64,000 nt of DNA from the sequence record PV806337.1; one strand, written 5' to 3'. Origin of the DNA: a phage. A program made the translations under genes and the position numbers. Shown piece after piece: positions 22,554 through 35,028 of the stretch (its first letter is position 1; each line of letters begins with the position of its first letter). The notes under the pieces were generated by a model, which searched no databases, was not told the DNA's origin, and saw only the letters and a list, made by a program, of their open reading frames with translations.

Positions 22554-22577
22554 TAGTTACACGTAATCTTCGAACCA

Positions 22578-22617: not shown

Positions 22618-22624
22618 AAGGCAA

Positions 22625-22665: not shown

Positions 22666-22872
22666 GGTTTAGAACCATACTCTCGGTGTACAGCAACCAC
22701 CCATACGGGAGGCCAATCTTGACTGAAAATCTACTCTAGGGGGCAGGATAAGAGTAGGCTTAAAGGCAAAGGGATTGAACGCCGGTATTTGCGTAAACAT
22801 TGCTGGAGAGCAACAACGTGCTACAGGCACTGGGCAGCACGAAACAGATTTTCTGCAACACATATTTCCTCC

Positions 22873-23289
22873 TTAGGAGTTACTACCCCCATTTTGAGCT
22901 TTTGCAACTTGGCTTTGGCAGAAGCTATTAAACTTACCCATAAGTGATACAAGCTGTTTCCCATCCTCTGTCTTTGCGAAGTCTTCGAAAAGGGCTAGTA
23001 CTGCCTGTCCTTCCGCAGAAACCTGCGGTTGTTGGGTTTGTTGCTGAACTTGCTGCTGAGGCACCTGTTGCTGCATTTGTTGAGGCATTTGCGACTGCCC
23101 GCTCATTTGCTGCATCATTTGCATAGGACTCACACTTCCAGGGTTTTGCTGGAGTTGTTGCTGCATCTGTTGCGCTTCTGCTAAACGCTGTTGCAACTGT
23201 TGTAAGTAGGGGTTATCCAGACCCGGAATGGGCTGCTGGGAGCCCATACTTTGATTAAGTCCGTTATTTACAAAACCATATTTACTCAT
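22873..23289 (-). CDS. Gln-rich low-complexity protein
   Basis: ORF track 138 aa; GGAGGAG RBS upstream on reverse strand; long Q/M/P repeats. Confidence 0.55.
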   Translation of the reverse strand: MSKYGFVNNGLNQSMGSQQPIPGLDNPYLQQLQQRLAEAQQMQQQLQQNPGSVSPMQMMQQMSGQSQMPQQMQQQVPQQQVQQQTQQPQVSAEGQAVLALFEDFAKTEDGKQLVSLMGKFNSFCQSQVAKAQNGGSNS

Positions 23290-23310
23290 AATGGGCTCCT
23301 CCCCTTAATA

Positions 23311-24300
23311 TTAAGCCGGCAGTTTAGCCTGCAGACCAGCCAGAGTCTGAGTGATAGCACCAAGACTTAAAGCGATTTGATTAATTACCTGACCGTTAGC
23401 ACCGCTACCCGCAGCGATTGCTTCACGTAGGCGACATGCGTCTAACTCATCCTGGATACGCGCAGTAGTTACACCAGCGATCGCAGTCTGAAGTTCACAG
23501 CAACATTCAGCGATCTGACGTTCCAGAGAGTTCTGGTTAGCACACATCTGAGCCTGAACAGCGGCAAACTGGTTATTAGTTTGTAAAGTCTGCTGGAAAG
23601 CGATCTGTGCAGAATCAAACTTATCTTGTGCACGAGCTATCTGGTTAGCTGCGAAAGATTGATCAATCTGGCGAGAAAGATCGAACTGACCCTGAATAAC
23701 GTTGCGAGTTTCCTGGCAGATCTGATTAGACAGATTAGCACCTGTACCGTAGATCGTAGTTAGTACAGACTGAGTATCACGGCTCTGGTTTTGGGTTGTC
23801 TGGCTAAAACCATTGTTAACTGCGCTTAAAACAGCTCCAGTACCCTGGTTAGCCTCTGTACGAGTAGTGTTGATAGCTGCTAGAATACTAGCGGTATCTT
23901 GGTTCTGAAGTACTGCATCAACTGCGGTACCTTCACCAACTACACCACGTCCACCGAATCCACCGAAACCACCGAATCCGCCGGTTAATAGAGCACCGAT
24001 TAGGATAGCTCCGAATAGTCCCATACCTTCACCACCGAAAGCACCTGCGTTTGCTGGGTAACCACCCAGTAGGCCAGGGAAGCCACTAGTGAATACGTTT
24101 ACTGGTTCTTGCATTTTATGTTTTCCATATTTATGACAATGTTCATCATCGTCATCTTCTTCTTCATCATCGTGTTCACGATGTTTTTCTTCGTAGGCTC
24201 TGACCTTCTCCCACTTTTTCTTATCTGATTCCTCGTGACGGTGCAGTTCTGCTGCAACGCTAGCGACGGTCTCAGGACTCTTAGCTACTTCTTCTGTCAT
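23311..24300 (-). CDS. acidic N-terminus / Gly-rich hydrophobic / Gln-Asn-Thr-rich protein
   Basis: Track ORF 23311-24360; ATG at 24300 has AGGAGG RBS; GGFGGFGGFGG segment. Confidence 0.55.
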   Translation of the reverse strand: MTEEVAKSPETVASVAAELHRHEESDKKKWEKVRAYEEKHREHDDEEEDDDDEHCHKYGKHKMQEPVNVFTSGFPGLLGGYPANAGAFGGEGMGLFGAILIGALLTGGFGGFGGFGGRGVVGEGTAVDAVLQNQDTASILAAINTTRTEANQGTGAVLSAVNNGFSQTTQNQSRDTQSVLTTIYGTGANLSNQICQETRNVIQGQFDLSRQIDQSFAANQIARAQDKFDSAQIAFQQTLQTNNQFAAVQAQMCANQNSLERQIAECCCELQTAIAGVTTARIQDELDACRLREAIAAGSGANGQVINQIALSLGAITQTLAGLQAKLPA

Positions 24301-24507
24301 ATTTTGACACCTCCTAGTATATAGAAAATGTGTGTCTCTTTGATCACTCATCCATAACATATACTTTACACTACCCCAGCGAAAATGTCAAGGGGTCTTT
24401 AAAAATTGCCCCCGGATTTTTAGTGGGGTCACAAATTTTGGTCCTCCCCACTTATCTGCTACCCTTAAGTGCCCTATGATTTTCCTCTAAAAAGTTAAAA
24501 AATTTGA

Positions 24508-24536
24508 TTGCTTGAATGCTAAATTCTCTGTATAAT
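24508..24536 (+). promoter_or_regulatory. T5-type promoter
   Basis: TTGCTT 24508-24513, 17 bp, TATAAT 24531-24536. Confidence 0.7.
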
Positions 24537-24566
24537 ATATCTATAAATTTGAGAGAGGAACCAAAT

Positions 24567-25085
24567 ATGAATGTTGATGAGCTAACACAGCACCTCTTAT
24601 CCAGAGGATTTGATACAGATAAATATCATTGCTGGTTAAGTCCGGAAGGATGGCTAACAGTCCCGTTGTATGACTTCTCCGGGATGTTGCGAGGCTATCA
24701 GACGTATAATCCTTCTGCTCCAAAAGGTCATGGTAAGTGTCCCTTTGAAGCTAAATATTTTACTTATTCTACTACCCAGTGTGTATGGGGACTAGAAACT
24801 CTCAATGGAGATGAAAAAGTAGTATTGATCGCTGAATCTGTATTTAAGGCAGTTGCGCTACATAACGCTGGTTATCCAGCCCTGGCAATGTTAGGTTCTT
24901 CTCCAGGAAAAGCGTTATTAAAGCAACTGAAATTATTACCTTTTAAATTGGTAGCTGTCGGAGACAACGATCCTGCGGGTGAAAAATTTGCTAGAAAATT
25001 AAACGGCTTTGTTTCTCCCGTAGATGTGGATGAGATGTCTACCGAAAACTTGAAAAATTTTCTTGCTATGAAGCTAAATTTCTAA
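24567..25085 (+). CDS. Toprim-domain protein (primase-like)
   Basis: In-frame ATG 24567 after promoter 24508-24536; LIAESVF..VAVGDNDPAGEKFA resembles DnaG Toprim. Confidence 0.55.
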   Translation: MNVDELTQHLLSRGFDTDKYHCWLSPEGWLTVPLYDFSGMLRGYQTYNPSAPKGHGKCPFEAKYFTYSTTQCVWGLETLNGDEKVVLIAESVFKAVALHNAGYPALAMLGSSPGKALLKQLKLLPFKLVAVGDNDPAGEKFARKLNGFVSPVDVDEMSTENLKNFLAMKLNF

Positions 25086-25091
25086 TATAAT
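25063..25091 (+). promoter_or_regulatory. T5-type promoter embedded in 3' end of Toprim-like gene, driving tRNA cluster
   Basis: TTGCTA 25063-25068, 17 bp, TATAAT 25086-25091; tRNA-Ser starts at 25107. Confidence 0.65.
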
Positions 25092-25106
25092 ATATCTTAT
25101 AAATTC

Positions 25107-25195
25107 GGAAGAATAGCATAACGGTATTGCAGCAGATTGCTAATCTGTCGGTTTGAAATATAGCCTTGTGGGTTCGATTCCCACTTCTTCCGCCA
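25107..25195 (+). tRNA. tRNA-Ser (anticodon GCT)
   Basis: Acceptor GGAAGAA/TTCTTCC, anticodon loop TTGCTAA, long variable arm, T-loop TTCGATT, CCA. Confidence 0.75.
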
Positions 25196-25201
25196 AATTC
25201 T

Positions 25202-25279
25202 GGTTCTCAAGCTCATATGGTATGAGCACCCGGCTCATAACCGGAAGGTACGTAGGTTCGAATCCTCGGGGAGCCACCA
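25202..25279 (+). tRNA. tRNA with CAT anticodon (Met/fMet/Ile2 type)
   Basis: Acceptor GGTTCTC/GGGAGCC, D-stem GCTC/GAGC, anticodon loop CTCATAA, T-loop TTCGAAT with weak T-stem, CCA. Confidence 0.5.
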
Positions 25280-25299
25280 ACTTAATTAGGGGATTACAA

Positions 25300-25488
25300 G
25301 TGGAATTATACATAGTTTATGTTGTATTTATTCAAGATAGAGAATACCCGGATGAATATAAAAAAGGATATAGGTTAGCCAGAGCTACCTCTGAGGCCCA
25401 AGCTATGGATAAAGTGGCAGATTATATGATTATGGTAGAAAACGTATACTATATCGACTCCCTTGAAGCCTCAAAAGTAATTGACTAA
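25300..25488 (+). CDS. hypothetical small protein
   Basis: GTG 25300 downstream of tRNAs; 5' part of track ORF 25153-25488 overlaps two tRNAs and is rejected. Confidence 0.35.
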   Translation: MELYIVYVVFIQDREYPDEYKKGYRLARATSEAQAMDKVADYMIMVENVYYIDSLEASKVID

Positions 25489-25497
25489 GGAGACTAT

Positions 25498-25683
25498 ATG
25501 TCCAAGTTTCAAGAACTCAAGCAAGAGCTAGAAGAATGTGCCTGCCCTGAGTGTAGGGGAATTGGTGAAAGTTCTGATGCAGAAGCAGGAGATACTTTTT
25601 GCAATATCTGGATTTGTTCAAATTGCAACGGTACAGGTATTAATCCTAACTGCGGTGTTTCCCTAGATATTGAACGAGGATAA
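25498..25683 (+). CDS. Cys-rich putative zinc-binding small protein
   Basis: ORF track 61 aa; CxC..CPEC..CSNCNG pattern. Confidence 0.5.
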   Translation: MSKFQELKQELEECACPECRGIGESSDAEAGDTFCNIWICSNCNGTGINPNCGVSLDIERG

Positions 25684-25784
25684 TACCTGTGAAACTAAAA
25701 GATTATTATATTGGTTGGTTTGTGGGACTAGTAGTAGGATTTTCACTAGGCTATAATATGTATCAACTAATAAACTGATTACAT

Positions 25785-25861
25785 GGGGGTGTAATCGAAT
25801 TGGCATAGGTACTGGACTTAAAATTCAGGTTTTGTGGGTTCGAATCCCACCACCCCTACCA
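25785..25861 (+). tRNA. tRNA with TAA anticodon (Leu by anticodon) but short variable arm
   Basis: Acceptor GGGGGTG/CACCCCT, anticodon stem CTGGA/TTCAG, loop CTTAAAA, T-arm GTGGG-TTCGAAT-CCCAC, A73, CCA; variable region only 5 nt. Confidence 0.55.
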
Positions 25862-25876
25862 ACTTAAGGAAATAAG

Positions 25877-26044
25877 ATGTATAGACATCCACCTCCGCCA
25901 ACACGTCGTTCTAGGGAAGTCATCCTTATGGAATTGACTAAAAACTTCAAGGCAACTCTTGAAGATAGAGATTTAGGCACGGATGAAGACATTGATTTTA
26001 TTTGTAGACTATTAAAGATGAAACTGGAGAAACAACATGGCTAA
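25877..26044 (+). CDS. hypothetical small protein
   Basis: 55-codon frame read by eye; AAGGAAA RBS. Confidence 0.4.
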   Translation: MYRHPPPPTRRSREVILMELTKNFKATLEDRDLGTDEDIDFICRLLKMKLEKQHG

Positions 26045-26243
26045 TCCTGAAATTACCGCACAACGTTTCATGCTTAAAGGCATGATTGCTGAAGCAGGTA
26101 TGACTCAAGAGGTTGCAGACTTTCATAAGCAATTTCTTGATATTATAACTCTAGCTAAAGAGACTGGAGAAAGAGAACACGGTGCAGCAATTATGGCTAT
26201 ATCTCTTATTAGCCTAGACTTAGCTGAAGAATCTGGAATTTAG
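26037..26243 (+). CDS. hypothetical protein
   Basis: ORF track 68 aa. Confidence 0.5.
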   Translation: MANPEITAQRFMLKGMIAEAGMTQEVADFHKQFLDIITLAKETGEREHGAAIMAISLISLDLAEESGI

Positions 26244-26273
26244 CTCCTCCAAACAGAATTTTTAAAAATGTAC

Positions 26274-26303
26274 TTGCCTTTTGCTTTAAATTTCTGATAT
26301 AAT
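26274..26303 (+). promoter_or_regulatory. T5-type promoter
   Basis: TTGCCT 26274-26279, 18 bp, TATAAT 26298-26303. Confidence 0.6.
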
Positions 26304-26333
26304 AGTTATATAAATTGATGAAGGAGTTAACTA

Positions 26334-26609
26334 ATGCAAAATCGTGTTGTAGCAACTGGTATTGAAAGTGCAATCTGTAAATCCTGGGAAGGCTGGGAAG
26401 GTGAGATTGAATGGCTTTATTTCTATGATGTAGAACTTCTACCGGAAGTTAAAGCTAAATGTGTTGAAGCTGGCATGGCTCCAGATGCAAAAGCTGATAT
26501 TGATATTTCAATGTCTGAACTTAAAGGTCGTGTAATTACTGTTAGTGATGAGGGCGAAGAAGTCTTCGAACTTCCATTCTCCTTAACTGTCACTCCTAAG
26601 TTCGACTAA
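26334..26609 (+). CDS. hypothetical protein
   Basis: ORF track 91 aa after promoter 26274-26303. Confidence 0.55.
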   Translation: MQNRVVATGIESAICKSWEGWEGEIEWLYFYDVELLPEVKAKCVEAGMAPDAKADIDISMSELKGRVITVSDEGEEVFELPFSLTVTPKFD

Positions 26610-26645
26610 CTAATACAGCATTGGGTAAGTTCTTTAAAATTTGAC

Positions 26646-26674
26646 TTGCTCAGTGCCTTAAAACTTGGTATAAT
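26646..26674 (+). promoter_or_regulatory. T5-type promoter driving tRNA-Tyr/Glu/Trp/Phe group
   Basis: TTGCTC 26646-26651, 17 bp, TATAAT 26669-26674. Confidence 0.65.
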
Positions 26675-26737
26675 AGTTATCTAATTTGGAAACATATTTA
26701 AAAGTGTTTAAACTAGTATTTGAATACTTTTAAATAT

Positions 26738-26828
26738 GTTGGATTAGTATCGTAGAGGTAGCGAAGCAGACTGTAAATCTGCCGACTCGGAAGGGTCTCG
26801 GGTGGTTCGACTCCATCATCCAACACCA
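26738..26828 (+). tRNA. tRNA-Tyr (anticodon GTA)
   Basis: Acceptor GTTGGAT/ATCCAAC, anticodon stem GCAGA/TCTGC, loop CTGTAAA, long variable arm, T-loop TTCGACT, CCA. Confidence 0.8.
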
Positions 26829-26835
26829 AATTTAA

Positions 26836-26912
26836 GTCCTGTTAGACAAACTGGTAAAGTCACTACCCTTTCAAGGTAGGATTTGCGGGTTCGATCCCCG
26901 CACAGGACGCCA
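26836..26912 (+). tRNA. tRNA-Glu (anticodon TTC)
   Basis: Acceptor GTCCTGT/ACAGGAC, anticodon stem CTACC/GGTAG, loop CTTTCAA, T-arm GCGGG-TTCGATC-CCCGC, CCA. Confidence 0.8.
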
Positions 26913-26920
26913 TTTTCTGC

Positions 26921-26997
26921 ATTCCTAGAGTGTTACTGGACAGCATGTCGGTCTCCAAAACCGTACGGTCTAGGTTCGAGTCCTAGTAGGTTTGCCA
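26921..26997 (+). tRNA. tRNA-Trp (anticodon CCA)
   Basis: Anticodon loop CTCCAAA, T-arm CTAGG-TTCGAGT-CCTAG, CCA; acceptor stem has two U-U mismatches. Confidence 0.55.
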
Positions 26998-27003
26998 AAA
27001 TTT

Positions 27004-27078
27004 GCACCTTTAGCTGAGATGGATTAGCGCTTGCCTGAAGAGCTTGAGAGGTTGGATCGTTACCAACGGGGTGCTCCA
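27004..27078 (+). tRNA. tRNA-Phe-like (anticodon GAA), atypical
   Basis: Acceptor GCACCTT/GGGGTGC, anticodon loop CTGAAGA, non-canonical T-loop ATCGTTA, CCA; anticodon stem has two U-U mismatches. Confidence 0.45.
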
Positions 27079-27095
27079 AATTGAAGGAGCTGCTG

Positions 27096-27368
27096 ATGCA
27101 TCCTGAAAACTTCTTTATTTACTGCGCTGATAAGTCGCTGAAACGTAGAATTAACAAAGTCTATCATTATAGTGCTAGTCAACAGCCTTATGTATACGCT
27201 TTTGACGGTGATCACATTCCACTAGAACAATTATCTTGTGATTACATGATATTGAAGAACTTTGATGAGACGAAGATCTCGAGCGTTCACAATCGACAGA
27301 ATCCATTAACGTGGAAATATAAGAAGAAAAAGAAAGGCATCAAATTCTTAAAAAATGTAGTTGCTTAG
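27096..27368 (+). CDS. hypothetical protein
   Basis: ATG 27096 with GAAGGAG RBS, inside track ORF 27081-27368. Confidence 0.5.
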   Translation: MHPENFFIYCADKSLKRRINKVYHYSASQQPYVYAFDGDHIPLEQLSCDYMILKNFDETKISSVHNRQNPLTWKYKKKKKGIKFLKNVVA

Positions 27369-27389
27369 TTTCCAAAAGTTCTGTATAAT
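27361..27389 (+). promoter_or_regulatory. T5-type promoter driving tRNA-Cys
   Basis: TTGCTT 27361-27366, 17 bp, TATAAT 27384-27389. Confidence 0.7.
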
Positions 27390-27437
27390 AATTACATAAA
27401 TTGAACTGGAGAAGCAACATGACAGAACAAGATAAAC

Positions 27438-27513
27438 CGACCGTTGGCTGAATGGCTTAGGCGAAGGATTGCAAATCCTTTTTATGTGAGTTCAAATCTC
27501 ATGCGGTCGTCCA
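27438..27513 (+). tRNA. tRNA-Cys (anticodon GCA)
   Basis: Acceptor CGACCGT/GCGGTCG, anticodon stem AAGGA/TCCTT, loop TTGCAAA, T-loop TTCAAAT, CCA. Confidence 0.8.
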
Positions 27514-27534
27514 AATTACTAAAGGAAAGAAGTA

Positions 27535-28053
27535 GTGCATACAAAAGTTTTTGATAGTTTGGTAAAGAAAGGCGTTGTTACTAACGAGCCCTTCTATATA
27601 ACCGCAGAACTAATCCAGAGATTTATGGAAGAATATATAAATCTTTCAGGAACCAATGGTAATACCAAAAAGAATACAAATACTATGTATTCGAGAAAAC
27701 TTGCTGCACTTTCCTTTATAAAGTTTAAGCAGGAAAATAAACTTCCTATTTCTGAAGGTTTTGTATACTGTATTAGTAATCCTGCATGGAAAAATCAGTA
27801 TAAAATAGGTATGAGTCAAAATCCAAAAGAGAGATTAGCTCAATATCAGACTTATTCCCCTTATAGGGATTATAAGTTAGAGCATTGGTCTTTTTGGTTT
27901 GACAAACGAAAAGGTGAAAAACTAATTCACCAGTATTTCAAAGATTTAAAAGAACATGAGTGGTTTAGTATAAATTCTAGGGATCTTAGTAAATATCTAG
28001 AACGTATTAACTCTAGTTCTGACTTATATGGTTCCTTAGCTCTAATTGGTTAG
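27535..28053 (+). CDS. T5orf172 (GIY-YIG-like) domain protein
   Basis: ORF track 172 aa; FVYCISNP..YKIGMS..RL motif. Confidence 0.6.
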   Translation: MHTKVFDSLVKKGVVTNEPFYITAELIQRFMEEYINLSGTNGNTKKNTNTMYSRKLAALSFIKFKQENKLPISEGFVYCISNPAWKNQYKIGMSQNPKERLAQYQTYSPYRDYKLEHWSFWFDKRKGEKLIHQYFKDLKEHEWFSINSRDLSKYLERINSSSDLYGSLALIG

Positions 28054-28107
28054 AGCGGCATCTTGTTAAGTTGAGGGTTGCTGGTTCGAATCCTGCAGGA
28101 ACCGCCA
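28030..28107 (+). tRNA. tRNA-Asn (anticodon GTT)
   Basis: Acceptor GGTTCCT/AGGAACC perfect, D-arm GCTC-TAATTGGTTA-GAGC, anticodon loop TTGTTAA, T-loop TTCGAAT, CCA. Confidence 0.7.
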
Positions 28108-28209
28108 AATTCTGTGTAGAGTTAAGTAAACCGGTAGCCAACCAGCTATCATTGCTGACATCGAATTCAGCCATAGATACCATTTTCGTTAATAACTGAG
28201 GAAACAAGC

Positions 28210-28395
28210 ATGTCCAAGAATGTAATTGCGCAGCTAGAAGTTCATCGTGATAGCACTATCAACAATATTGAAGTTGAGAAGAAATACATAGAAGAACTTA
28301 AACATGATATACTGGTAAGTCTCAACCGTCTTAATGTACGAAAAGAGTTTCTTAAAGAACTTAATGCAGCTATTGAAAAACTCAAAGCTGAGTAA
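28210..28395 (+). CDS. hypothetical coiled-coil small protein
   Basis: ORF track 61 aa. Confidence 0.5.
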   Translation: MSKNVIAQLEVHRDSTINNIEVEKKYIEELKHDILVSLNRLNVRKEFLKELNAAIEKLKAE

Positions 28396-28404
28396 ATGAA
28401 TTAT

Positions 28405-28481
28405 GCGACCGGGGCTGGCTTGGTAATGGTACTCCCCTGTCACGGGAGAGAATGTGGGTTCAAATCCCATCGGTCGCGCCA
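28405..28481 (+). tRNA. tRNA-Asp (anticodon GTC)
   Basis: Acceptor GCGACCG/CGGTCGC, anticodon stem CTCCC/GGGAG, loop CTGTCAC, T-loop TTCAAAT, CCA. Confidence 0.8.
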
Positions 28482-28498
28482 AATAAGGTAGGTTAGCT

Positions 28499-28657
28499 AT
28501 GGAACGTAGGGAGTTTACTCCAGAAGAGATAGAGCAGATAAAAGAATCTGCTATGAAAAATGCTAGAATATCTCTGTCACTGGAAGGTATCATTATTAGT
28601 GATGTAAACTTTGAAAAAATCAAAGCCATAGCTGATGAACTGGAAAAAGTAATTTAA
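28499..28657 (+). CDS. hypothetical small protein
   Basis: 52-codon frame read by eye between tRNA-Asp and tRNA-Lys. Confidence 0.4.
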   Translation: MERREFTPEEIEQIKESAMKNARISLSLEGIIISDVNFEKIKAIADELEKVI

Positions 28658-28658
28658 T

Positions 28659-28734
28659 ACATCCATAGCTCAATGGTTAGAGCTACCGCCTCTTAAGCGG
28701 AGGGTTCTAGGTTCAAGTCCTAGTGGGTGTACCA
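28659..28734 (+). tRNA. tRNA-Lys (anticodon CTT)
   Basis: Acceptor ACATCCA/TGGGTGT, D-arm GCTC/GAGC, anticodon loop CTCTTAA, T-arm CTAGG-TTCAAGT-CCTAG, CCA. Confidence 0.6.
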
Positions 28735-28760
28735 AATTAAACTAGCACGAGAAATATGCT

Positions 28761-29108
28761 ATGATTAATGCTAAAGAAGAATTGTTACTTGCCCTAAAGA
28801 ATACTAATTCTGAAGTTAAGTGTATTAAGATAGAATTCGGTTATTATGGGGATAAAGAAGTTTGGGTATTACCCGTAGGTTATACAGAAAAAGATATTGA
28901 AGATTTTCTAGATAATCTAGACTTTAAATATGATTCTGGTTTCGGCGGACAATTGCTTTATGGTAACGTATGGTTTACCGATGGAACTTGGTTAGAACGT
29001 GGTGAATATGATGGTTCTGAATGGTGGGAATATAAGACTACACCAGCAATCCCAGAAGAATGCCGAACAATTAATGGTGAAGTAGATCGTACTTTACTAT
29101 TAAATTAA
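28761..29108 (+). CDS. hypothetical protein
   Basis: ORF track 115 aa. Confidence 0.55.
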   Translation: MINAKEELLLALKNTNSEVKCIKIEFGYYGDKEVWVLPVGYTEKDIEDFLDNLDFKYDSGFGGQLLYGNVWFTDGTWLERGEYDGSEWWEYKTTPAIPEECRTINGEVDRTLLLN

Positions 29109-29230
29109 CAAAATTTCAGTGCAGAACACGGAGCTAGCAATTCGGAAGTGCTGACTCATGATAAGCTGCCTATGTACTTGCGAAGCGGTCGTGTCCAAGA
29201 CTCGGACTCTTGCACTGAAAACAATCAAAC

Positions 29231-29352
29231 ATTCTAGCGTGGTTGATGGGGAAACCAGCTTGGCGAGGGCAGAAGCTCGTTCGATTCGAGTGAAAGAATG
29301 GTTCTCGTAAGTCCGCACAAGTGATAACAGGTTCGAGTCCTGTCTAGAATGA
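29231..29352 (+). ncRNA. 122-nt tRNA-like structured RNA (acceptor-like helix, D-arm, two T-arm hairpins)
   Basis: ATTCTAG (29231-29237) pairs perfectly with CTAGAAT (29346-29352); D-arm TGGT/ACCA; T-arm hairpins GCTCG-TTCGATT-CGAGT and ACAGG-TTCGAGT-CCTGT; no CCA; no ORF. Confidence 0.3.
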
Positions 29353-29500
29353 CACTATAAAGTTTACTTATTATGTAGGTTCCGATAGACCGGCGGGTCT
29401 ATTCTGGCATTTAAGAGAGGTCTCGCAAACTTCTTTGTCAGCCGTGGGGTTGGTAGCCTCCAGGTGGCCTACACAATAAGTAAATTTATTAAAAATTCAT

Positions 29501-29529
29501 TTGCTATTCTGCTTTATTATCTGTATAAT
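29501..29529 (+). promoter_or_regulatory. T5-type promoter
   Basis: TTGCTA 29501-29506, 17 bp, TATAAT 29524-29529. Confidence 0.7.
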
Positions 29530-29561
29530 ATATTTTATAAAGTGAAGAGAAGGAAAGCAAA

Positions 29562-29720
29562 ATGAAACACAAGATAGCTCAAGTTTTTATGGCATTATGG
29601 TGTATACCAATAGCTATAACAGCATTTAATCTAGATACTTTTACTATAGAAGAAAAATGTATCGGATTAGTTAGCGGTTTTATTATGCTGGGCTTATCTT
29701 TGCTGTGGTTAAAGAACTAA
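29562..29720 (+). CDS. small membrane protein
   Basis: 52-codon frame after promoter 29501-29529 and GAGAAGGAAAG RBS; hydrophobic. Confidence 0.45.
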   Translation: MKHKIAQVFMALWCIPIAITAFNLDTFTIEEKCIGLVSGFIMLGLSLLWLKN

Positions 29721-29724
29721 TATT

Positions 29725-29802
29725 CTCCGTGTAGCTCAGTTTGGCCAGAGCGTTTCGTTTGGGGCGATAGGGTCGGGGGTTCAAATCCTCCCACGGAGAC
29801 CA
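29725..29802 (+). tRNA. tRNA-Pro (anticodon TGG)
   Basis: Acceptor CTCCGTG/CACGGAG, D-arm GCTC/GAGC, anticodon loop TTTGGGG, T-loop TTCAAAT, CCA. Confidence 0.7.
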
Positions 29803-29808
29803 AACAAT

Positions 29809-29886
29809 TGCGGGTTAGATCTCTGGTAGAGATCGCTAGTCTCATAAGCTAGAAAGAGGTAGGTTCGATTCCTGCACCCGCTTCCA
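29809..29886 (+). tRNA. tRNA with CAT anticodon (Met/fMet/Ile2 type)
   Basis: D-arm GATC/GATC, anticodon stem CTAGT/GCTAG, loop CTCATAA, T-loop TTCGATT, CCA. Confidence 0.7.
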
Positions 29887-29906
29887 CTTTAATAGAGGAT
29901 TTCGAA

Positions 29907-30074
29907 ATGAAAGTATTTCGATTAGTAGTAAGTGACAAACGTTTAGGTAAGAATACCTCAAAATCCTTACTTGCTCATTATGGAAAAGATGAGAAAGAAG
30001 TAATGGCGGAGTTTGGGATTAATCACCCTTACTTGAAAGTTCACTCTATTAAAGAAGTATATAATGGTTACTAA
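29907..30074 (+). CDS. hypothetical small protein
   Basis: 55-codon frame read by eye between tRNA-CAT and tRNA-Lys. Confidence 0.4.
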   Translation: MKVFRLVVSDKRLGKNTSKSLLAHYGKDEKEVMAEFGINHPYLKVHSIKEVYNGY

Positions 30075-30075
30075 T

Positions 30076-30154
30076 AGATCGCTAGCTCAATAGGTTTAGT
30101 AGCATCCGACTTTTAATCGGAAGGTTCTGGGTTCGAGTCCCAGGCGATCTACCA
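30076..30154 (+). tRNA. tRNA-Lys (anticodon TTT)
   Basis: Acceptor AGATCGC/GCGATCT perfect, anticodon stem TCCGA/TCGGA, loop CTTTTAA, T-loop TTCGAGT, CCA. Confidence 0.8.
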
Positions 30155-30172
30155 ATTTCAAGAAAAACGCAG

Positions 30173-30201
30173 TTGCTTGATGCTTAATTTCTTGTTATAA
30201 T
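30173..30201 (+). promoter_or_regulatory. T5-type promoter driving ORF-free segment and tRNA-Ala
   Basis: TTGCTT 30173-30178, 17 bp, TATAAT 30196-30201. Confidence 0.7.
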
Positions 30202-30438
30202 ATTTATATAAATTGATGAGGAGAAATCCTCATCATAGTTCACTAAGGTATTAGCTCGACCTAGGACTGGCTACCAAAAAGCACGATCCCTACGATTTGG
30301 AGAAGTTCTAGATTAGTCCACTAGATTCAGCGGCAACTGAATAGTGTATTGGGTTTGCGAGATGACGCAGTTCCTTCCGCTCGAAGCGAAGGTGCTGTAG
30401 TTACGCCGAGCTAATAGCCTTAGTAAACTAAAGAATTT

Positions 30439-30517
30439 GGGGGATGGGTCTGCTAGGGGTGGACACCTCACTTGCACCGAGGACATCAGAACGATTCGAA
30501 TTCGTTATCCTCCACCA
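30439..30517 (+). tRNA. tRNA-Ala (anticodon TGC)
   Basis: Acceptor GGGGGAT/ATCCTCC, D-stem GTCT/GGAC, anticodon loop CTTGCAC, T-arm AACGA-TTCGAAT-TCGTT, CCA. Confidence 0.6.
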
Positions 30518-30522
30518 AATAC

Positions 30523-30599
30523 GCGTGATTGATGGAATTGGCATACATACCGTCCTTAGAAGTCGGGTTTTGAGGGTTCGAATCCCTTGTCACGCACCA
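30523..30599 (+). tRNA. tRNA with TAG anticodon (Leu by anticodon) but short variable arm
   Basis: Acceptor GCGTGAT/GTCACGC, anticodon loop CTTAGAA, T-arm GAGGG-TTCGAAT-CCCTT, A73, CCA; 5-nt variable region. Confidence 0.5.
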
Positions 30600-30724
30600 A
30601 ATTTGATGGTCAGAGTAAATTAAACCTACTATCTCGGTTGAGCTGTTTTAATGGGTTCGAATCCCAGCGAGGCGTAACTGCCTGGTGTGATAGAGGCATC
30701 ATTCCACTAACATTGGAAAAACTA

Positions 30725-30955
30725 ATGAAACGAAAATTAAAAAAGTCTTATATAATTAAGATAAATAAGCTACGAAGTAGGGCAAAAGGATGGCCACTTC
30801 GAATATTAATTGCGGATAACCATACTAGATACCATGCGGAACAACGTCATTACAAACAGTGGGAGTCATACTGCCGCTCAAAAGCAGGTCGTTTAGATGG
30901 ATCTTATGAGTTTCTATTTGGTAAGAAGCCTACTAGAGTAGCTTTAGGTAATTAA
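30725..30955 (+). CDS. small basic protein
   Basis: In-frame ATG inside track ORF 30587-30955; upstream part carries a tRNA T-arm-like motif. Confidence 0.4.
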   Translation: MKRKLKKSYIIKINKLRSRAKGWPLRILIADNHTRYHAEQRHYKQWESYCRSKAGRLDGSYEFLFGKKPTRVALGN

Positions 30956-30959
30956 TACT

Positions 30960-31050
30960 TGGAAGAGCAAATCGAATTGGCGACGAAAACCGCTTGGAAA
31001 GTGGCTGACTGGTAAAACGGCTTGAGAGTTCAAATCTCTCCTCTTCCGCC
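30960..31050 (+). tRNA. tRNA-Ser (anticodon GGA)
   Basis: Anticodon loop TTGGAAA, long variable arm, T-arm GAGAG-TTCAAAT-CTCTC, acceptor 3' CTCTTCC, CCA. Confidence 0.6.
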
Positions 31051-31062
31051 AAACAATTTATA

Positions 31063-31157
31063 TGGTAGGTCAATCCAATGGCTGGCGTGGGACTCCGACT
31101 TGAAATCGGTTGATCGTAGTGATACGGTGTAAGGGTTCGATCCCCTTACCTACCTCC
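31063..31157 (+). tRNA. tRNA-Ser (anticodon TGA)
   Basis: Acceptor GGTAGGT/ACCTACC perfect, anticodon stem CCGA/TCGG, loop CTTGAAA, long variable arm, T-loop TTCGATC, CCA. Confidence 0.7.
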
Positions 31158-31523
31158 AAATCTTGAAGTATGCCGGAATCGGTAGACGGGGCTGCCTAAA
31201 AGGTTTATAGGGAACATCCACTCCCTGCAACATACCTCATAAAGCGGCTGAGATAAATGGTCTATCTCGTGAAGGTTCAAGTCCTTCTGCTTCTTGATAT
31301 ATCTATGGCTCAAAGTGTAACGGTGCTATTTGATGCTCTTAGTAAGACTTTCCCGACATGCGTTCGGGAGTAAGCTGCTAAGGCTAGAGTAGAAGAGTTT
31401 CGGAGAGCCGCCACAATTGAAAATTCGTACTCGTCTTGAGCTGCGCGCAATAGGAGATAACTTGATTAGTATTCTAGAACATGCTAATTGAGGATGGTTT
31501 CGCTAACCCTGCGAGTTTTCAAT

Positions 31524-31600
31524 TGTGGCTATATCATAATTGGTTAATGATCCTGATTGTGAATCAGGCCTATGTGGATTCGAATTCCACTAGCCACCCC
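31524..31600 (+). tRNA. tRNA-His (anticodon GTG)
   Basis: Acceptor GTGGCTA/TAGCCAC, D-arm TCAT/ATGA, anticodon stem CCTGA/TCAGG, loop TTGTGAA, T-loop TTCGAAT, CCA. Confidence 0.8.
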
Positions 31601-31626
31601 AAATTAACTTAAACAGGAAATAAAAT

Positions 31627-31821
31627 ATGGCTGATTTCTGCAAACAATGCTCCATTGATATGTGGGGCAGAGATACTGGTGATCTTTCTGGTTTGATTAC
31701 AGAAGCTGAAGTTAAAGAAGGCTACGGTGCAGTTGTAGTTTGCGAAGGCTGTGGAGTTATTCGAGTAGATCATGAAGGCAAACGTTTAGAAGAACCTGGG
31801 CCAACTACTCTAATTCCATAG
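31627..31821 (+). CDS. putative zinc-ribbon small protein
   Basis: ORF track 64 aa; CKQC ... CEGC pairs. Confidence 0.55.
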   Translation: MADFCKQCSIDMWGRDTGDLSGLITEAEVKEGYGAVVVCEGCGVIRVDHEGKRLEEPGPTTLIP

Positions 31822-31833
31822 AGTAATAATTAT

Positions 31834-31909
31834 TGGGATGTAGATCAATTGGCAGATCGTCGGCCTCTGACTCCGAAGGTTCCACGTTCGATCCGTGGCA
31901 TCCCAGCCA
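31834..31909 (+). tRNA. tRNA-Gln (anticodon CTG)
   Basis: 76 nt; U1-A72, G73, anticodon positions 34-36 CTG, T-loop TTCGATC, CCA. Confidence 0.8.
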
Positions 31910-31915
31910 AACAAT

Positions 31916-31991
31916 TGGAGAGTAGTGTAACGGTTAGCACAACGGCCTTTGACTCCGTTAATGGTAGGTTCGATTCCTCCTTCTCCAGCCA
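31916..31991 (+). tRNA. tRNA-Gln (anticodon TTG)
   Basis: 76 nt; U1-A72, G73, D-stem GTGT/GCAC, anticodon loop CTTTGAC, T-loop TTCGATT, CCA. Confidence 0.8.
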
Positions 31992-31999
31992 AATAATAA

Positions 32000-32075
32000 G
32001 CGGTTAAGCACACGGGTTGTGTCGCAGGCCTTCCAAGCCTCGCTGAGTAGGGTTCGATTCCCTCTAGCCGCTCCA
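32000..32075 (+). tRNA. tRNA-Gly (anticodon TCC)
   Basis: Acceptor GCGGTTA/TAGCCGC, anticodon loop CTTCCAA, T-loop TTCGATT, U73, CCA. Confidence 0.8.
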
Positions 32076-32091
32076 ACTTTAAGGAAATGTT

Positions 32092-32313
32092 ATGCACGTT
32101 TTTGAGTTTCGTAATAAAAATACTGATAAGCGAGTTATCATTATTGGAGAAACATACCGAGCATATGAACAAACTGACGGCTCTGTTATCTTGAATGATG
32201 AGAAAGGAGGTTTTAGCTTTTATCCAGAAGAACCTTATGAAGAGTTTCGTACTAAGTTTCTTTTACCAGACTGGCTAGCAGTAGCTGAGCAACGAGAATC
32301 CGAAGATGGCTGA
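32092..32313 (+). CDS. hypothetical protein
   Basis: ORF track 73 aa. Confidence 0.5.
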   Translation: MHVFEFRNKNTDKRVIIIGETYRAYEQTDGSVILNDEKGGFSFYPEEPYEEFRTKFLLPDWLAVAEQRESEDG

Positions 32314-32470
32314 TAACCTAAAATTAAGGGTCGACAAACAAAAGAAATACATTGAGGTTGAATTAGGCGAAGAACGCTTAAAGCTAACTTTCGAGTTTCT
32401 TCAGCAGTTGGCAATGACAGTTATGACTGATAAGTCTCCTGTTATTGAAAAAGAAATCCCGTTGAAATAA
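32306..32470 (+). CDS. hypothetical small protein
   Basis: 54-codon frame overlapping previous stop. Confidence 0.4.
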   Translation: MADNLKLRVDKQKKYIEVELGEERLKLTFEFLQQLAMTVMTDKSPVIEKEIPLK

Positions 32471-32478
32471 CGGGTTCT

Positions 32479-32553
32479 GCTCCTAAAGCATTGCTGGCGA
32501 TGCAGTTGCCTTGTAAGCATCTGAACCGGGTTCGATTCCTGGTGGGAGCACCA
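32479..32553 (+). tRNA. tRNA-Thr (anticodon TGT)
   Basis: Acceptor GCTCCTA/TGGGAGC, D-arm GCAT/ATGC, anticodon loop CTTGTAA, T-loop TTCGATT, CCA. Confidence 0.75.
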
Positions 32554-32568
32554 AATTTAAAAATTCAT

Positions 32569-32597
32569 TTGCCTTCTCTCTTATTTCTTGTTATAAT
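32569..32597 (+). promoter_or_regulatory. T5-type promoter
   Basis: TTGCCT 32569-32574, 17 bp, TATAAT 32592-32597. Confidence 0.65.
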
Positions 32598-32627
32598 ATT
32601 TATATAAATTAATGAGAGGGAAACCAA

Positions 32628-32921
32628 ATGAAACGTTATCTTTCTGTAGTATTTCAAACTGGTGGTCAAAGATATACCTATGAATTTCCTAACTCTTGGA
32701 AAATCAAAGAAGGTGATCAAGTTGTTGTGTTAACACCACGTGAAGGATATAAAGTAGTAACTGTTAAACAAGTATTCCCAAAAGATCATGAACCAGCTAA
32801 AGGCATTTGCTATAAGATGATTCATGGTGTAGTTCGTCAAGTACCACGAGCGGAAGTCGAAATCAAAATAGATAAAGATGGTAAACTTAAATACACCTCC
32901 TGCTTAGACGAGTTGCTATAA
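32628..32921 (+). CDS. hypothetical protein
   Basis: ORF track 97 aa after promoter 32569-32597. Confidence 0.55.
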   Translation: MKRYLSVVFQTGGQRYTYEFPNSWKIKEGDQVVVLTPREGYKVVTVKQVFPKDHEPAKGICYKMIHGVVRQVPRAEVEIKIDKDGKLKYTSCLDELL

Positions 32922-33127
32922 TGAGGATTACTTTTACAGAAAAGATCATGAGTAATGGTGTTATGATCATTACCGCATGGGATGGTAATCAGTGGTGTAG
33001 TGTTTCAGGTATTAAACCTGAAGAACAAACACTAGAAAATATCTCAAAGATTAAGCGAAGAATGGCAGAACGTGCACGACTTCCAGGTGCACCCAGAAAT
33101 GGCAAACGTTCTGCAACTAAATGTTAA
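32921..33127 (+). CDS. hypothetical protein
   Basis: ORF track 68 aa, ATGA overlap with previous gene. Confidence 0.5.
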   Translation: MRITFTEKIMSNGVMIITAWDGNQWCSVSGIKPEEQTLENISKIKRRMAERARLPGAPRNGKRSATKC

Positions 33128-33128
33128 T

Positions 33129-33205
33129 GCTTCGGTAGCTTAGCGATCTAAAGCACTCGGCTGATAACCGAGAGATCGGGGGTTTAAATCCCTCCCGGAG
33201 TACCA
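33129..33205 (+). tRNA. tRNA-Ile (anticodon GAT)
   Basis: Anticodon stem CTCGG/CCGAG perfect, loop CTGATAA, atypical T-loop TTTAAAT, CCA. Confidence 0.7.
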
Positions 33206-33301
33206 AATTTAGGAATTAAGACTATGCGTCCAGGAAAGTTTAAAAAAGCTAATTGGTCTAAAGAGTATAAAGAATACTTACTTAGTCTAATAAAACATAA
33301 T

Positions 33302-33377
33302 AGTTAGTTGGCAGAGTGGTTATGCACCTCCTTCATACGGAGCGATTACAGTGGTTCAAATCCACTACTAACTACCA
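33302..33377 (+). tRNA. tRNA with CAT anticodon (Met/fMet/Ile2 type)
   Basis: Acceptor AGTTAGT/ACTAACT perfect, anticodon loop TTCATAC, T-arm AGTGG-TTCAAAT-CCACT, CCA. Confidence 0.7.
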
Positions 33378-33414: not shown

Positions 33415-33609
33415 ATGTTAACAGTTAAAGTAATGGCCACTAATGGTGGTGAAGAAATTCATGACGGTACTAGTGTAGGATTTAATCCCAAAAATAAAAG
33501 TATTCATATTTCAGGATTAGATCAACCAATTTTCTTAAAAGAGAATGAAGTTGCCTATGTTATGAACCAAAATGGTAAAACTGTTTCCGTATACTATGGA
33601 AAAGTATAA
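33415..33609 (+). CDS. hypothetical protein
   Basis: ORF track 64 aa; hairpin plus T-run at 33620-33642. Confidence 0.5.
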   Translation: MLTVKVMATNGGEEIHDGTSVGFNPKNKSIHISGLDQPIFLKENEVAYVMNQNGKTVSVYYGKV

Positions 33610-33794
33610 AGAATAAAATATCAGGCCTTTGTGCCTGATTTCTATGTTTATTAAGCTGAATGGGACTATCAATCCACAAGCCGGACTACGAGCGATTATC
33701 GGGTATTCACTTAATAAACAGCCTGCCTTCCAGTTTTTATCTTGCTTCTGGGTTAACAAAAAGCTGAGCCAAATTCTAACATCGGGGAGATCTA

Positions 33795-34163
33795 ATGAAA
33801 GCATATCAAAATCTTAAATCTGGCGTAATTAACCTTGTTCATGAAAATCAGATTATTCAGCTGTACTCCGACAATGGTGAACTTAAACAGAAAGTTCTAG
33901 TTGAAGATCTAGAAGGTATCACACCACAATTCGATTCCGAAGCCTTCCGTGAAGTCAAAGTGGAAGTCGCTCCTCAAATCGAAGGTGGTCAGCACCTAAA
34001 TGTCAATGTGTTAAGCCGTGATCAGCTTTTGGATGCGCAGAAACATCCTGAAAAATATCCTCAGTTGACCATCCGTGTCTCTGGCTACGCTGTTCGATTT
34101 AATGCACTGACTCGCGAACAACAGAACGACGTTATTAGTCGTACGTTTACTCAGGCGATGTAA
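33795..34163 (+). CDS. grcA: autonomous glycyl-radical cofactor protein (GrcA/YfiD-like)
   Basis: ORF track 122 aa; C-terminal [27 protein letters not shown] matches glycyl-radical domain. Confidence 0.7.
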
Positions 34164-34244
34164 TGGGGTTTGGATACGATTTCTCCCAGCTACGCAAGGT
34201 AGTCGAGCAAACTCCATTTATCTCCCAAGTTTTAGGAGAAATGT

Positions 34245-34559
34245 GTGGATCGAGCATTAAGACGCCATCACCGGCAACGTATGAAGAACAACCGCAAGAA
34301 GTACTGGACAGTCTTTCCACATGAAGAAAGCCCTAAGCGGTTAGGTATCATCACTACTACTCCTTGCATCTGTTCTTGTTGGATGTGTGGGAACCCTCGC
34401 AAATATTATAAGAATAGTAAAGCAGGACTGAAAATTTCGGAGATTAGGAAAATGGAAGCAATGATTATGGGCATTTCAAATGATGAATTTGATGGCTTTG
34501 TAGGATTCGGAGAAGGAATCAGCTCAGGCTGTTTCGAAGATGAATGCCACGATCTGTAA
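34245..34559 (+). CDS. Cys-rich hypothetical protein
   Basis: ORF track 104 aa; terminator hairpin at 34569-34599. Confidence 0.5.
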   Translation: MDRALRRHHRQRMKNNRKKYWTVFPHEESPKRLGIITTTPCICSCWMCGNPRKYYKNSKAGLKISEIRKMEAMIMGISNDEFDGFVGFGEGISSGCFEDECHDL

Positions 34560-34680: not shown

Positions 34681-35028
34681 ATGAGCCGTACTTATCGTAA
34701 ACAATCTGGTGATCAGTGGTGGAAGTCTAAAGAACAATTCTCTCAAGAATATTCTTTCATCAAAGAAAATGGCTACTGGATTCGTGTTATTTATGCCAAA
34801 TCTTGGGACTACATCAAAAAAGAAATGAAGGAAGCAACCATTCGTAATGAGAAAAAGGATGGTTATAACTGGAATTCCATTAGTAAGAATGTTAAGTGGC
34901 ACTCTAATAAAATGGTTCGTCAAGGGAATCGTCAAGAACTCCACCGCGTGATGAAAGATACAGAAAATTATGATTATAATCGCGATCATGACATGCGTAA
35001 GCGTGGATTATGGTGGTGCTATGACTAA
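34681..35028 (+). CDS. hypothetical basic protein
   Basis: ORF track 115 aa with GGAGG RBS; opposing ORF 34648-34989 judged spurious. Confidence 0.5.
   Translation: MSRTYRKQSGDQWWKSKEQFSQEYSFIKENGYWIRVIYAKSWDYIKKEMKEATIRNEKKDGYNWNSISKNVKWHSNKMVRQGNRQELHRVMKDTENYDYNRDHDMRKRGLWWCYD

What the first reader, a model, noticed from the sequence alone, without database searches (positions are those of the whole stretch)
33795..34163. Phage-encoded GrcA-like glycyl-radical spare-part protein alongside NrdD
The 122-aa product ends with [27 protein letters not shown], the glycyl-radical domain signature of GrcA/YfiD, which repairs oxygen-damaged pyruvate formate-lyase. The same genome encodes NrdD (5567-7414), itself a glycyl-radical enzyme, plus aerobic NrdAB. 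A phage GrcA could help maintain host anaerobic metabolism or rescue a glycyl-radical enzyme during infection under micro-aerobic conditions.
Basis: partly seen in the sequence, partly recalled or inferred. Interest (0 to 1): 0.6.

Follow-up and report, generated by a model that had tools for sequence, protein, structure and literature searches.

The report
T5-type phage GrcA spare-part protein
This is the well-known small "spare-part" glycyl-radical protein (GrcA/YfiD type) that T5-like and T4-like phages carry to patch the host's oxygen-damaged pyruvate formate-lyase; it is real and intact, but already annotated in hundreds of phage genomes and its T4 counterpart was characterised biochemically in 2001.

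Summary
Window 33795..34163 (+) is a 122-aa ORF with a good ribosome-binding site. Its C-terminal 61 residues are a PFL-type glycyl-radical domain with the radical glycine G97 in RVSGYAV. They are 79-80% identical to E. coli GrcA, to the PflB C-terminus and to T4 vs.6/Y06I. NrdD, NrdA and NrdB lie at the stated coordinates.

The window is a T5-like phage (Demerecviridae). The gene is the orthologue of T5.056. The exact protein is already in public databases, and homologues occur in 1583 phage records, many annotated "autonomous glycyl radical cofactor" or "pyruvate formate-lyase". T4 Y06I was shown in 2001 to be activated by PFL activase and to restore oxygen-cleaved PFL.

Purifying selection is strong: dN/dS is 0.02-0.14, with no amino-acid changes in the C-terminal half.

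The likely target is host PflB, activated by host PflA. It is not the phage NrdD, which shows no significant similarity, lies 26 kb away and is on the other strand.

One less obvious point: in jumbo and Aeromonas phages grcA sits inside the nrdD/nrdG cluster. This suggests a formate-supply link to the formate-dependent class III reductase, but that link is untested.

Verdict: ordinary and already known. Interest is low.

The parts
33795..34163 (+). grcA-like gene (orthologue of T5.056; homologue of T4 vs.6/Y06I), 122 aa plus stop
   Evidence: ORF. Pfam, NCBIfam, PHROG and PDB matches. Orthologues in T5, slur09 and WP85. dN/dS 0.02-0.14.
33975..34160 (+). C-terminal glycyl-radical domain (residues 61-122). 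RVSGYAV is residues 94-100 and the radical Gly is G97 (codon 34083-34085).
   Evidence: Alignments. 79-80% identity to GrcA, PflB and T4 vs.6. No nonsynonymous change against 16-18 synonymous changes when the window is compared with slur09 or T5. Foldseek top hits are 6owr (YfiD) and 2pfl/1cm5 (PFL).
33795..33974 (+). N-terminal half (residues 1-60). It diverges from bacterial GrcA but aligns with other phage GrcAs (MKAYQ start, near-invariant Q5).
   Evidence: Alignments A2 and A3. PHROG 1209 matches the full length, whereas TIGR04365 aligns only residues 50-122. dN/dS 0.10-0.17. AlphaFold predicts four beta strands with pLDDT about 80-84.
33784..33789 (+). Shine-Dalgarno sequence GGGGAG, 5 nt upstream of the ATG
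   Evidence: Read directly from the sequence.
33620..33649 (+). Terminator-like hairpin (7-bp stem, then TTCTATGTTT) after the upstream 64-aa ORF, 146 nt before grcA
   Evidence: The consensus scan found 3 such sites in the region against 1.1 expected. Function is not shown.
5567..7414 (-). nrdD, a class III (anaerobic) ribonucleotide reductase of the T4/E. coli formate-dependent type. It is a same-genome glycyl-radical enzyme and not a partner by sequence.
   Evidence: Pfam NRDD E=1.3e-172. T4 NrdD 1h78 E=5e-178. No similarity to the GrcA ORF.

Best explanation
[quoted passage not shown] The proposed sequence of events is as follows. The gene is expressed from the early tRNA-gene region of a T5-like phage. 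When host pyruvate formate-lyase (PflB) has been cleaved at Gly734 by oxygen, the small protein docks onto the damaged enzyme and its C-terminal domain replaces the lost glycyl-radical domain. Host PFL activase (PflA, a radical-SAM enzyme) then installs a radical on G97 of the phage protein. That radical is passed to Cys419 of PflB, and pyruvate is again converted to acetyl-CoA and formate. A virulent phage that degrades host DNA prevents the cell from making new PflB or GrcA. A 122-aa spare part therefore keeps the existing PflB pool, and with it fermentative ATP, acetyl-CoA and formate, working during infection in the oxygen-fluctuating gut. What is shown here: identity, intactness and conservation of the domain, orthology to T5.056, and homology to T4 Y06I. 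What is shown elsewhere: T4 Y06I and E. coli YfiD are activated by PFL activase and reconstitute oxygen-cleaved PFL. What is inferred: that the T5-type protein does the same, that host PflA is its activase, and the benefit to the phage.
For: The glycyl-radical domain is of PFL type. All 45 columns around RVSGYAV are invariant across the window protein, T4 vs.6, GrcA and PflB, and 37 remain invariant across 32 phage and bacterial GrcAs. The C-terminal 61 aa are 80.3% identical to PflB and 78.7% to GrcA and to T4 vs.6. The best solved-structure matches are GrcA 6owr and PFL, by sequence and by fold. The protein is a full-length homologue of the T4 protein (PHROG 1209 over residues 1-122; tblastn coverage 100% at about 52% identity in T4-like phages). 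T4 vs.6 is annotated GrcA. Y06I and YfiD are the two experimentally validated spare parts for PFL (PMC8683613). Purifying selection is strong: dN/dS is 0.02-0.14, and the C-terminal half has 0 nonsynonymous against 16-18 synonymous differences between the window and slur09 or T5. In T5 the orthologue lies in a tRNA operon between annotated promoter P11 and a rho-independent terminator. The 64-kb window holds no phage activase, so a host activase is required.
Against: No experiment exists on a T5-type protein. Its N-terminal 49 residues are not recognised by the bacterial GrcA profile. It scores 121 bits against the 170-bit equivalog cutoff, although the validated T4 protein also fails that cutoff at 151 bits. 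In YfiD the N-terminal half matters for binding cleaved PFL and for activation (PMC8683613), so a divergent N-terminus could change partner affinity or regulation. No phage phenotype for vs.6 or T5.056 was found in the searchable literature.
Confidence: 0.85

Rival explanations
1. The same biochemical activity (PFL rescue), but its selective value is specifically to keep formate flowing to the phage's own class III ribonucleotide reductase. NrdD of the E. coli/T4 type uses formate as its reductant, so GrcA would functionally be part of the phage's anaerobic dNTP-supply module.
For: The window NrdD is of the T4/E. coli type (1h78 E=5e-178). Formate is the reductant for these enzymes (Mulliez 1995, as cited in PMC4493059). 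Synteny recurs in other phage lineages: nrdD-grcA-nrdG in roughly 350-kb jumbo phages (L041-L043); nrdD-nrdG-grcA-nrdC-nrdH in Aeromonas phage Ah1 and relatives (L079 and L092); nrdA-nrdB-grcA in Vibrio phage D479. Five of the six grcA-carrying phage lineages checked also showed nrdD (this window, T4, Ah1, K64-1-like, SE_PL-like). For Vibrio phage D479 only nrdA and nrdB were seen within the 5-kb flanks.
Against: In the window and in T4 the genes are 26 kb and about 17 kb apart. In the IMG/VR sample only 5 of about 70 short-grcA loci have nrd genes within 6 kb. Co-occurrence could simply reflect large virulent phages of facultative anaerobes carrying several independent 'anaerobic' accessories. 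Cells also have other formate sources.
Confidence: 0.3
2. The protein is a spare glycyl-radical domain for the phage's own NrdD, or is radicalised by an NrdG-type activase, rather than serving PFL.
For: NrdD is also cleaved at its radical glycine by oxygen (general knowledge). grcA lies beside nrdD and nrdG in some phages.
Against: BLASTP of the GrcA ORF against the window NrdD gives E=5.6. The NrdD loop reads RRVCGYLG and follows a Zn-ribbon, unlike RVSGYAV. The domain is held at about 80% identity to host PflB across phage families, as expected if the invariant host enzyme is the partner. No NrdG homologue is present in the window, and none was seen in T5-like genomes. T4 Y06I is activated by PFL activase.
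Confidence: 0.03
3. It is a decoy or inhibitor. It would soak up PflA activity or cap PflB to shut down or redirect host fermentation, rather than repairing it.
For: The N-terminal half differs from that of bacterial GrcA, and that half controls binding and activation in YfiD. Phages often encode inhibitory mimics (general knowledge).
Against: Every catalytic-loop residue needed to carry and deliver the radical is conserved and under strict purifying selection. The T4 homologue reconstitutes activity rather than inhibiting it.
Confidence: 0.05
4. It is a non-functional captured fragment of host pflB or grcA.
For: At the DNA level the 3' half matches the E. coli pflB 3' end at 77-78% identity.
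Against: It is a full-length conserved ORF with its own RBS. The phage-specific N-terminal half is conserved across T5-like, T4-like and jumbo phages. dN/dS is far below 1. It is present in 1583 phage records.
Confidence: 0.01

Closest known systems
Bacteriophage T5 T5.056 ('putative acetyltransferase-related protein', IPR001150) and its orthologues in Tequintavirus/Epseptimavirus phages
   Same: Same length (122 aa) and same place at the end of the tRNA-gene region. The window protein is 90-100% identical to the T5-type proteins in the public phage records and protein database; T5 itself differs by 9 nonsynonymous substitutions. Also. An identical protein is already in the public protein collection (P0001).
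   Different: Here, and in slur09 and WP85, a 64-aa ORF plus a hairpin separates tRNA-Met from the gene. In T5 the gene starts 13 nt after tRNA-Met.
Bacteriophage T4 vs.6 / Y06I (validated spare-part protein for PFL)
   Same: Same architecture: about 60 aa of phage-type N-terminus starting MKAYQ, followed by a PFL-type glycyl-radical domain. 78.7% identity in the C-terminal 61 aa. Same PHROG family.
   Different: The N-terminal halves are only about 28% identical (pairwise E=0.01). The T4 C-terminal domain is 97% identical to E. coli GrcA, whereas the T5-type domain is equidistant (79-80%) from GrcA, PflB and T4. The genomic context also differs.
E. coli GrcA (YfiD), PDB 6OWR
   Same: A small autonomous glycyl-radical protein. 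The RVSGYAV loop and flanking helices are conserved, and the structure is the top hit by both sequence and fold.
   Different: The bacterial N-terminal half is not recognisably matched before residue about 50. The score is below the NCBIfam equivalog cutoff (121 against 170 bits). The gene is encoded by a virulent phage.
C-terminal glycyl-radical domain of pyruvate formate-lyase PflB (residues 698-759)
   Same: 80.3% identity over 61 aa, including Gly734-equivalent G97. DNA identity to the pflB 3' end is 77-78%.
   Different: It is a stand-alone 122-aa protein without the 700-residue catalytic barrel.

Membership tests
Glycyl-radical domain (Pfam PF01228 Gly_radical) | Profile match above the gathering score | tested here: met
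   66.5 bits against a cutoff of 22.2, E=3.5e-18, residues 62-103.
Glycyl-radical domain (Pfam PF01228 Gly_radical) | Radical glycine in the RVxG[FWY] loop | tested here: met
   R94-V95-S96-G97-Y98-A99-V100 is invariant in alignments with GrcA, PflB, T4 vs.6 and 31 other homologues.
Autonomous glycyl radical cofactor GrcA/YfiD (TIGR04365, IPR011140) | Small stand-alone protein (about 120-130 aa) consisting of an N-terminal extension plus a PFL-type glycyl-radical domain, with no catalytic barrel | tested here: met
   122-aa ORF bounded by stop codons. The domain is 79-80% identical to GrcA and PflB.
Autonomous glycyl radical cofactor GrcA/YfiD (TIGR04365, IPR011140) | Score at or above the NCBIfam equivalog cutoff (170 bits) | tested here: not met
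   121.4 bits, aligned only over residues 50-122. As controls, experimentally validated T4 Y06I also fails at 151.1 bits, while E. coli GrcA scores 234. The cutoff therefore defines the bacterial equivalog, not the function.
Autonomous glycyl radical cofactor GrcA/YfiD (TIGR04365, IPR011140) | N-terminal half homologous to that of GrcA | tested here: inconclusive
   Multiple alignment places a near-invariant Q5 and similar strand pattern in phage and bacterial proteins. The T4 N-terminus against the GrcA N-terminus gives E=4.6e-5. The window N-terminus against GrcA matches only residues 51-61, and against T4 gives E=0.01.
Autonomous glycyl radical cofactor GrcA/YfiD (TIGR04365, IPR011140) | Radical installation by PFL activase (PflA) and restoration of activity to oxygen-cleaved PflB | not testable with these tools
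   Shown for YfiD and T4 Y06I only (PMC8683613). Inferred here by homology.
Phage GrcA family (PHROG 1209; T4 vs.6, T5.056) | Full-length profile match | tested here: met
   163 bits, E=6.2e-48, residues 1-122 on profile positions 1-121 of 121.
Phage GrcA family (PHROG 1209; T4 vs.6, T5.056) | Orthologous position in T5-like genomes (downstream end of the tRNA-gene array) | tested here: met
   It follows tRNA-Ile and tRNA-Met in the window, slur09, WP85 and T5.
Class III RNR glycyl-radical domain (NrdD C-terminus) | Sequence similarity to the NrdD radical domain (RVCGY loop after a Zn-ribbon) | tested here: not met
   BLASTP against the window NrdD gives E=5.6. The NrdD loop is TRRVCGYLG, preceded by CGKCG...CPICG.

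The most novel reading that the evidence does not exclude
Phage GrcA may not be a general metabolic helper. It may instead be a working part of the phage's anaerobic deoxynucleotide supply: by keeping host PFL alive it would secure formate, the obligatory reductant of the phage's formate-type class III reductase NrdD. That would explain why grcA has repeatedly been placed inside nrdD/nrdG or nrdAB clusters in jumbo, Aeromonas and Vibrio phages, and why T5-like phages keep both glycyl-radical proteins while apparently relying on host activases for both.
Probability: 0.3. Interest if true: 0.5.

Novelty: already known. Interest (0 to 1): 0.18.

Why it matters
The finding adds nothing new about what the gene is. 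It is the T5-type copy of a phage gene family whose T4 member helped define the 'spare-part' repair concept. Two questions remain open. First, no in vivo phenotype has been reported for any phage grcA in the literature I could search. Second, the reason phages of enteric bacteria keep this gene is unexplained: it could be energy and acetyl-CoA supply, or formate for NrdD. The recurrent nrdD-grcA-nrdG synteny seen here in other phage lineages makes the formate hypothesis directly testable.

Tried and rejected
- **NrdG or other radical-SAM activase in the window.** tblastn with T4 NrdG gave only E>3 noise. CxxxCxxC motifs occur only in a 104-aa ORF (34245..34559) and a 66-codon frame, and neither is an activase.
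- **NrdG in T5-like genomes generally.** None of 45 rows spread across 2280 NrdG-bearing phage records was a T5-like genome. This is suggestive, not exhaustive.
- **RNA element in the 186-nt spacer upstream of grcA.** Rfam found only the two tRNAs. The fold z-score is +0.36, so there is no special structure beyond the terminator hairpin.
- **Sigma-70 promoter directly upstream.** There is only a 9/12 match at 33753-33782, and site counts are at the level expected by chance.
- **Recent transfer from the host.** DNA identity to E. coli pflB, tdcE and grcA is only 74-78% and covers only the 3' half. Rejected.
- **NrdD spare-part idea.** No similarity. Rejected.
- **Pfam on the neighbouring small ORFs.** Only DUF7295 was found, at 34681..35028. 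Nothing links them to glycyl-radical chemistry.
- **Literature searches for a phage grcA phenotype or a published formate-NrdD rationale.** Nothing found. The T4 genome review and the YfiD NMR paper are not held in the library.

Full report
**Observation.** Window 33795..34163 (+) is an ATG-initiated ORF of 122 codons ending ...[35 protein letters not shown]. A GGGGAG ribosome-binding site lies 5 nt upstream. The product matches:
- Pfam Gly_radical: 66.5 bits against a cutoff of 22.2.
- NCBIfam GrcA models: TIGR04365 at 121 bits, and the GrcA3 and GrcA2 models.
- PHROG 1209 over its full length.
- PDB GrcA 6owr (E=1e-30) and the last 62 residues of E. coli PflB (E=5e-27).

In an alignment with T4 vs.6, E. 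coli GrcA and the PflB C-terminus, 45 columns are invariant, including the whole R94-V-S-G97-Y-A-V100 loop. In a 32-sequence alignment of phage and bacterial homologues, 37 columns stay invariant. The only correction is that nrdD is 26 kb away on the other strand, so 'alongside' means only 'in the same genome'.

**What the window is.** The 2.2 kb around the gene matches 446 phage records. The best is Salmonella phage WP85 at 96.9% identity, followed by AKFV33, slur09 and other Tequintavirus/T5-like Demerecviridae. The gene sits at the downstream end of a 21-tRNA array, just after tRNA-Ile and tRNA-Met, as it does in slur09, WP85 and T5. In T5 it is T5.056, 'putative acetyltransferase-related protein, match to IPR001150'. 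There it lies between annotated promoter P11 and a rho-independent terminator, in a tRNA operon. An identical protein is already in the public protein collection, on contigs of 108-110 kb.

**Distribution.** tblastn finds the protein in 1583 phage records:
- about 436 at 80% identity or more (T5-like);
- about 1000 at roughly 50% identity with full-length coverage (T4-like Straboviridae of Escherichia, Klebsiella, Shigella, Yersinia and Aeromonas).

Jumbo phages and Vibrio phages also carry it. Depositors already call it 'autonomous glycyl radical cofactor', 'pyruvate formate-lyase', 'glycine radical' and similar names. In T4 it is vs.6, annotated GrcA. This is the protein Y06I.

**What is known.** According to Andorfer et al. 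2021 (PMC8683613), Knappe and co-workers (Wagner et al. 2001) showed that E. coli YfiD and T4 Y06I work as follows. They are radicalised by PFL activase, bind oxygen-cleaved PFL, and restore its activity. These two remain the only validated spare-part proteins. YfiD's disordered N-terminal 60 residues are needed for efficient binding and activation but not for catalysis.

**Is the window gene functional?** Codon-level comparison of the window gene with WP85, slur09 and T5 gives dN/dS of 0.02-0.14 overall. In the C-terminal half there are no nonsynonymous changes, against 16-18 synonymous changes when the window is compared with slur09 or T5. The N-terminal half has dN/dS of 0.10-0.17. Both halves are therefore under purifying selection. 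An AlphaFold model (mean pLDDT 74) reproduces the glycyl-radical hairpin and helices, and its top Foldseek hits are YfiD 6owr and PFL. The model also predicts a four-stranded beta unit in residues 2-36 (pLDDT about 84). That contrasts with the disordered N-terminus reported for YfiD, and I treat it as a prediction only.

**Which partner?** The C-terminal 61 residues are 80.3% identical to PflB and 78.7% identical to GrcA and to T4 vs.6. BLASTP against the phage's own NrdD gives E=5.6. The NrdD radical loop is TRRVCGYLG and follows a zinc ribbon. A domain held this close to host PflB across phage families implies that host PflB, or its paralogue TdcE, is the partner. The 64-kb window has no NrdG- or PflA-like activase. 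No T5-like genome appeared in a spread sample of the 2280 phage records that carry NrdG. Activation by host PflA is therefore the parsimonious inference, matching the T4 biochemistry.

**Membership.** The protein meets the Pfam domain criteria, the radical-loop criterion, the small stand-alone architecture and the phage family profile. It fails the NCBIfam GrcA equivalog cutoff (121 against 170 bits), because residues 1-49 are not matched. The validated T4 protein fails the same cutoff at 151 bits, while E. coli GrcA scores 234. The failure therefore reflects a bacterial-only calibration and is not evidence of a different function. Homology of the N-terminal half to bacterial GrcA is plausible but weak for the T5 type.

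In several other phage lineages the grcA homologue is embedded in ribonucleotide-reductase clusters:
- nrdD-grcA-(DUF4326)-nrdG in K64-1-like jumbo phages and nrdD-grcA-nrdG in SE_PL-like jumbo phages (L041-L043);
- nrdD-nrdG-grcA-nrdC-nrdH in Aeromonas phage Ah1 and relatives (L079 and L092);
- nrdA-nrdB-grcA in Vibrio phage D479.

The window's NrdD is of the T4/E. coli type, and that type uses formate as its reductant (Mulliez et al. 1995, as cited in PMC4493059). PFL is the main fermentative source of formate. A reasonable but untested reading is that phage GrcA protects the formate supply for the phage's anaerobic reductase. Against this, the genes are far apart in T5-like and T4 genomes, and only 5 of about 70 sampled short-grcA loci have nrd genes within 6 kb. 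I give this reading about 0.3.

**Verdict.** It is also ordinary: a known, widely annotated phage gene family with a biochemically characterised T4 member. Novelty is 'already known' and interest is low (0.18).

Noticed in passing
window 7401..8072 (-), promoter about 8090-8121: A 223-aa AT-rich ORF with two DUF4379 treble-clef zinc fingers and a T5orf172/MUG113 (GIY-YIG-like) domain. It has its own near-consensus TTGACG-17-TATAAT promoter and overlaps the nrdD start by 14 nt. It is absent from this position in the 97%-identical phage WP85. It is probably a mobile homing-endonuclease-like insertion between phoH and nrdD.
   Followed up: partly
L007/L008, L011/L012, L006, L009; L041-L043, L079, L092: In jumbo Klebsiella/Salmonella phages the grcA homologue lies between nrdD and nrdG. 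In Aeromonas phage Ah1 it directly follows nrdG. In Vibrio phage D479 it directly follows nrdB. This is recurrent synteny with ribonucleotide-reductase genes that T5-like and T4 genomes lack.
   Followed up: partly
window, whole 64 kb: Two glycyl-radical proteins (NrdD and GrcA) are present but no radical-SAM activase (NrdG/PflA type). T5-like genomes were also not seen among sampled NrdG-bearing phage records, so both proteins presumably depend on host activases.
   Followed up: partly
L002 23558-23920 (T4 vs.6) compared with window 33795-34163: The T4 vs.6 C-terminal 61 aa are 97% identical to E. coli GrcA, while its N-terminal half is only about 33% identical. The T5-type domain is equidistant (79-80%) from GrcA, PflB and T4. 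This suggests a mosaic or separate exchange history for the two phage lineages.
   Followed up: no
window 33415..33649: A 64-aa ORF with no family match, plus a hairpin terminator, is inserted between tRNA-Met and grcA here and in slur09 and WP85. In T5 grcA starts 13 nt after tRNA-Met.
   Followed up: no
window 34245..34559 (+) and 34163..34324 (+): The downstream 104-aa ORF (T5.055 homologue) carries a CICSCWMCGNPRK cysteine motif and an arginine/lysine-rich N-terminus, with no Pfam hit. A 53-aa ORF overlaps the grcA stop codon (TAATG). Public records annotate these two ORFs inconsistently.
   Followed up: no
window 3207..4705 (-): A Sir2-family ORF (278 aa) and a HAD_SAK_2 'Swiss Army Knife RNA repair' HAD-domain ORF (168 aa) lie next to each other downstream of nrdD. 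WP85 annotates both as Sir2 deacetylase.
   Followed up: no
window 21497..33377 (+): An array of 21 tRNA genes interspersed with small ORFs, typical of T5-like early regions. The complement differs slightly from WP85 and T5: for example tRNA-Trp and a second tRNA-Lys are present here, and no tRNA-Phe, tRNA-Val or tRNA-Ala was called.
   Followed up: no
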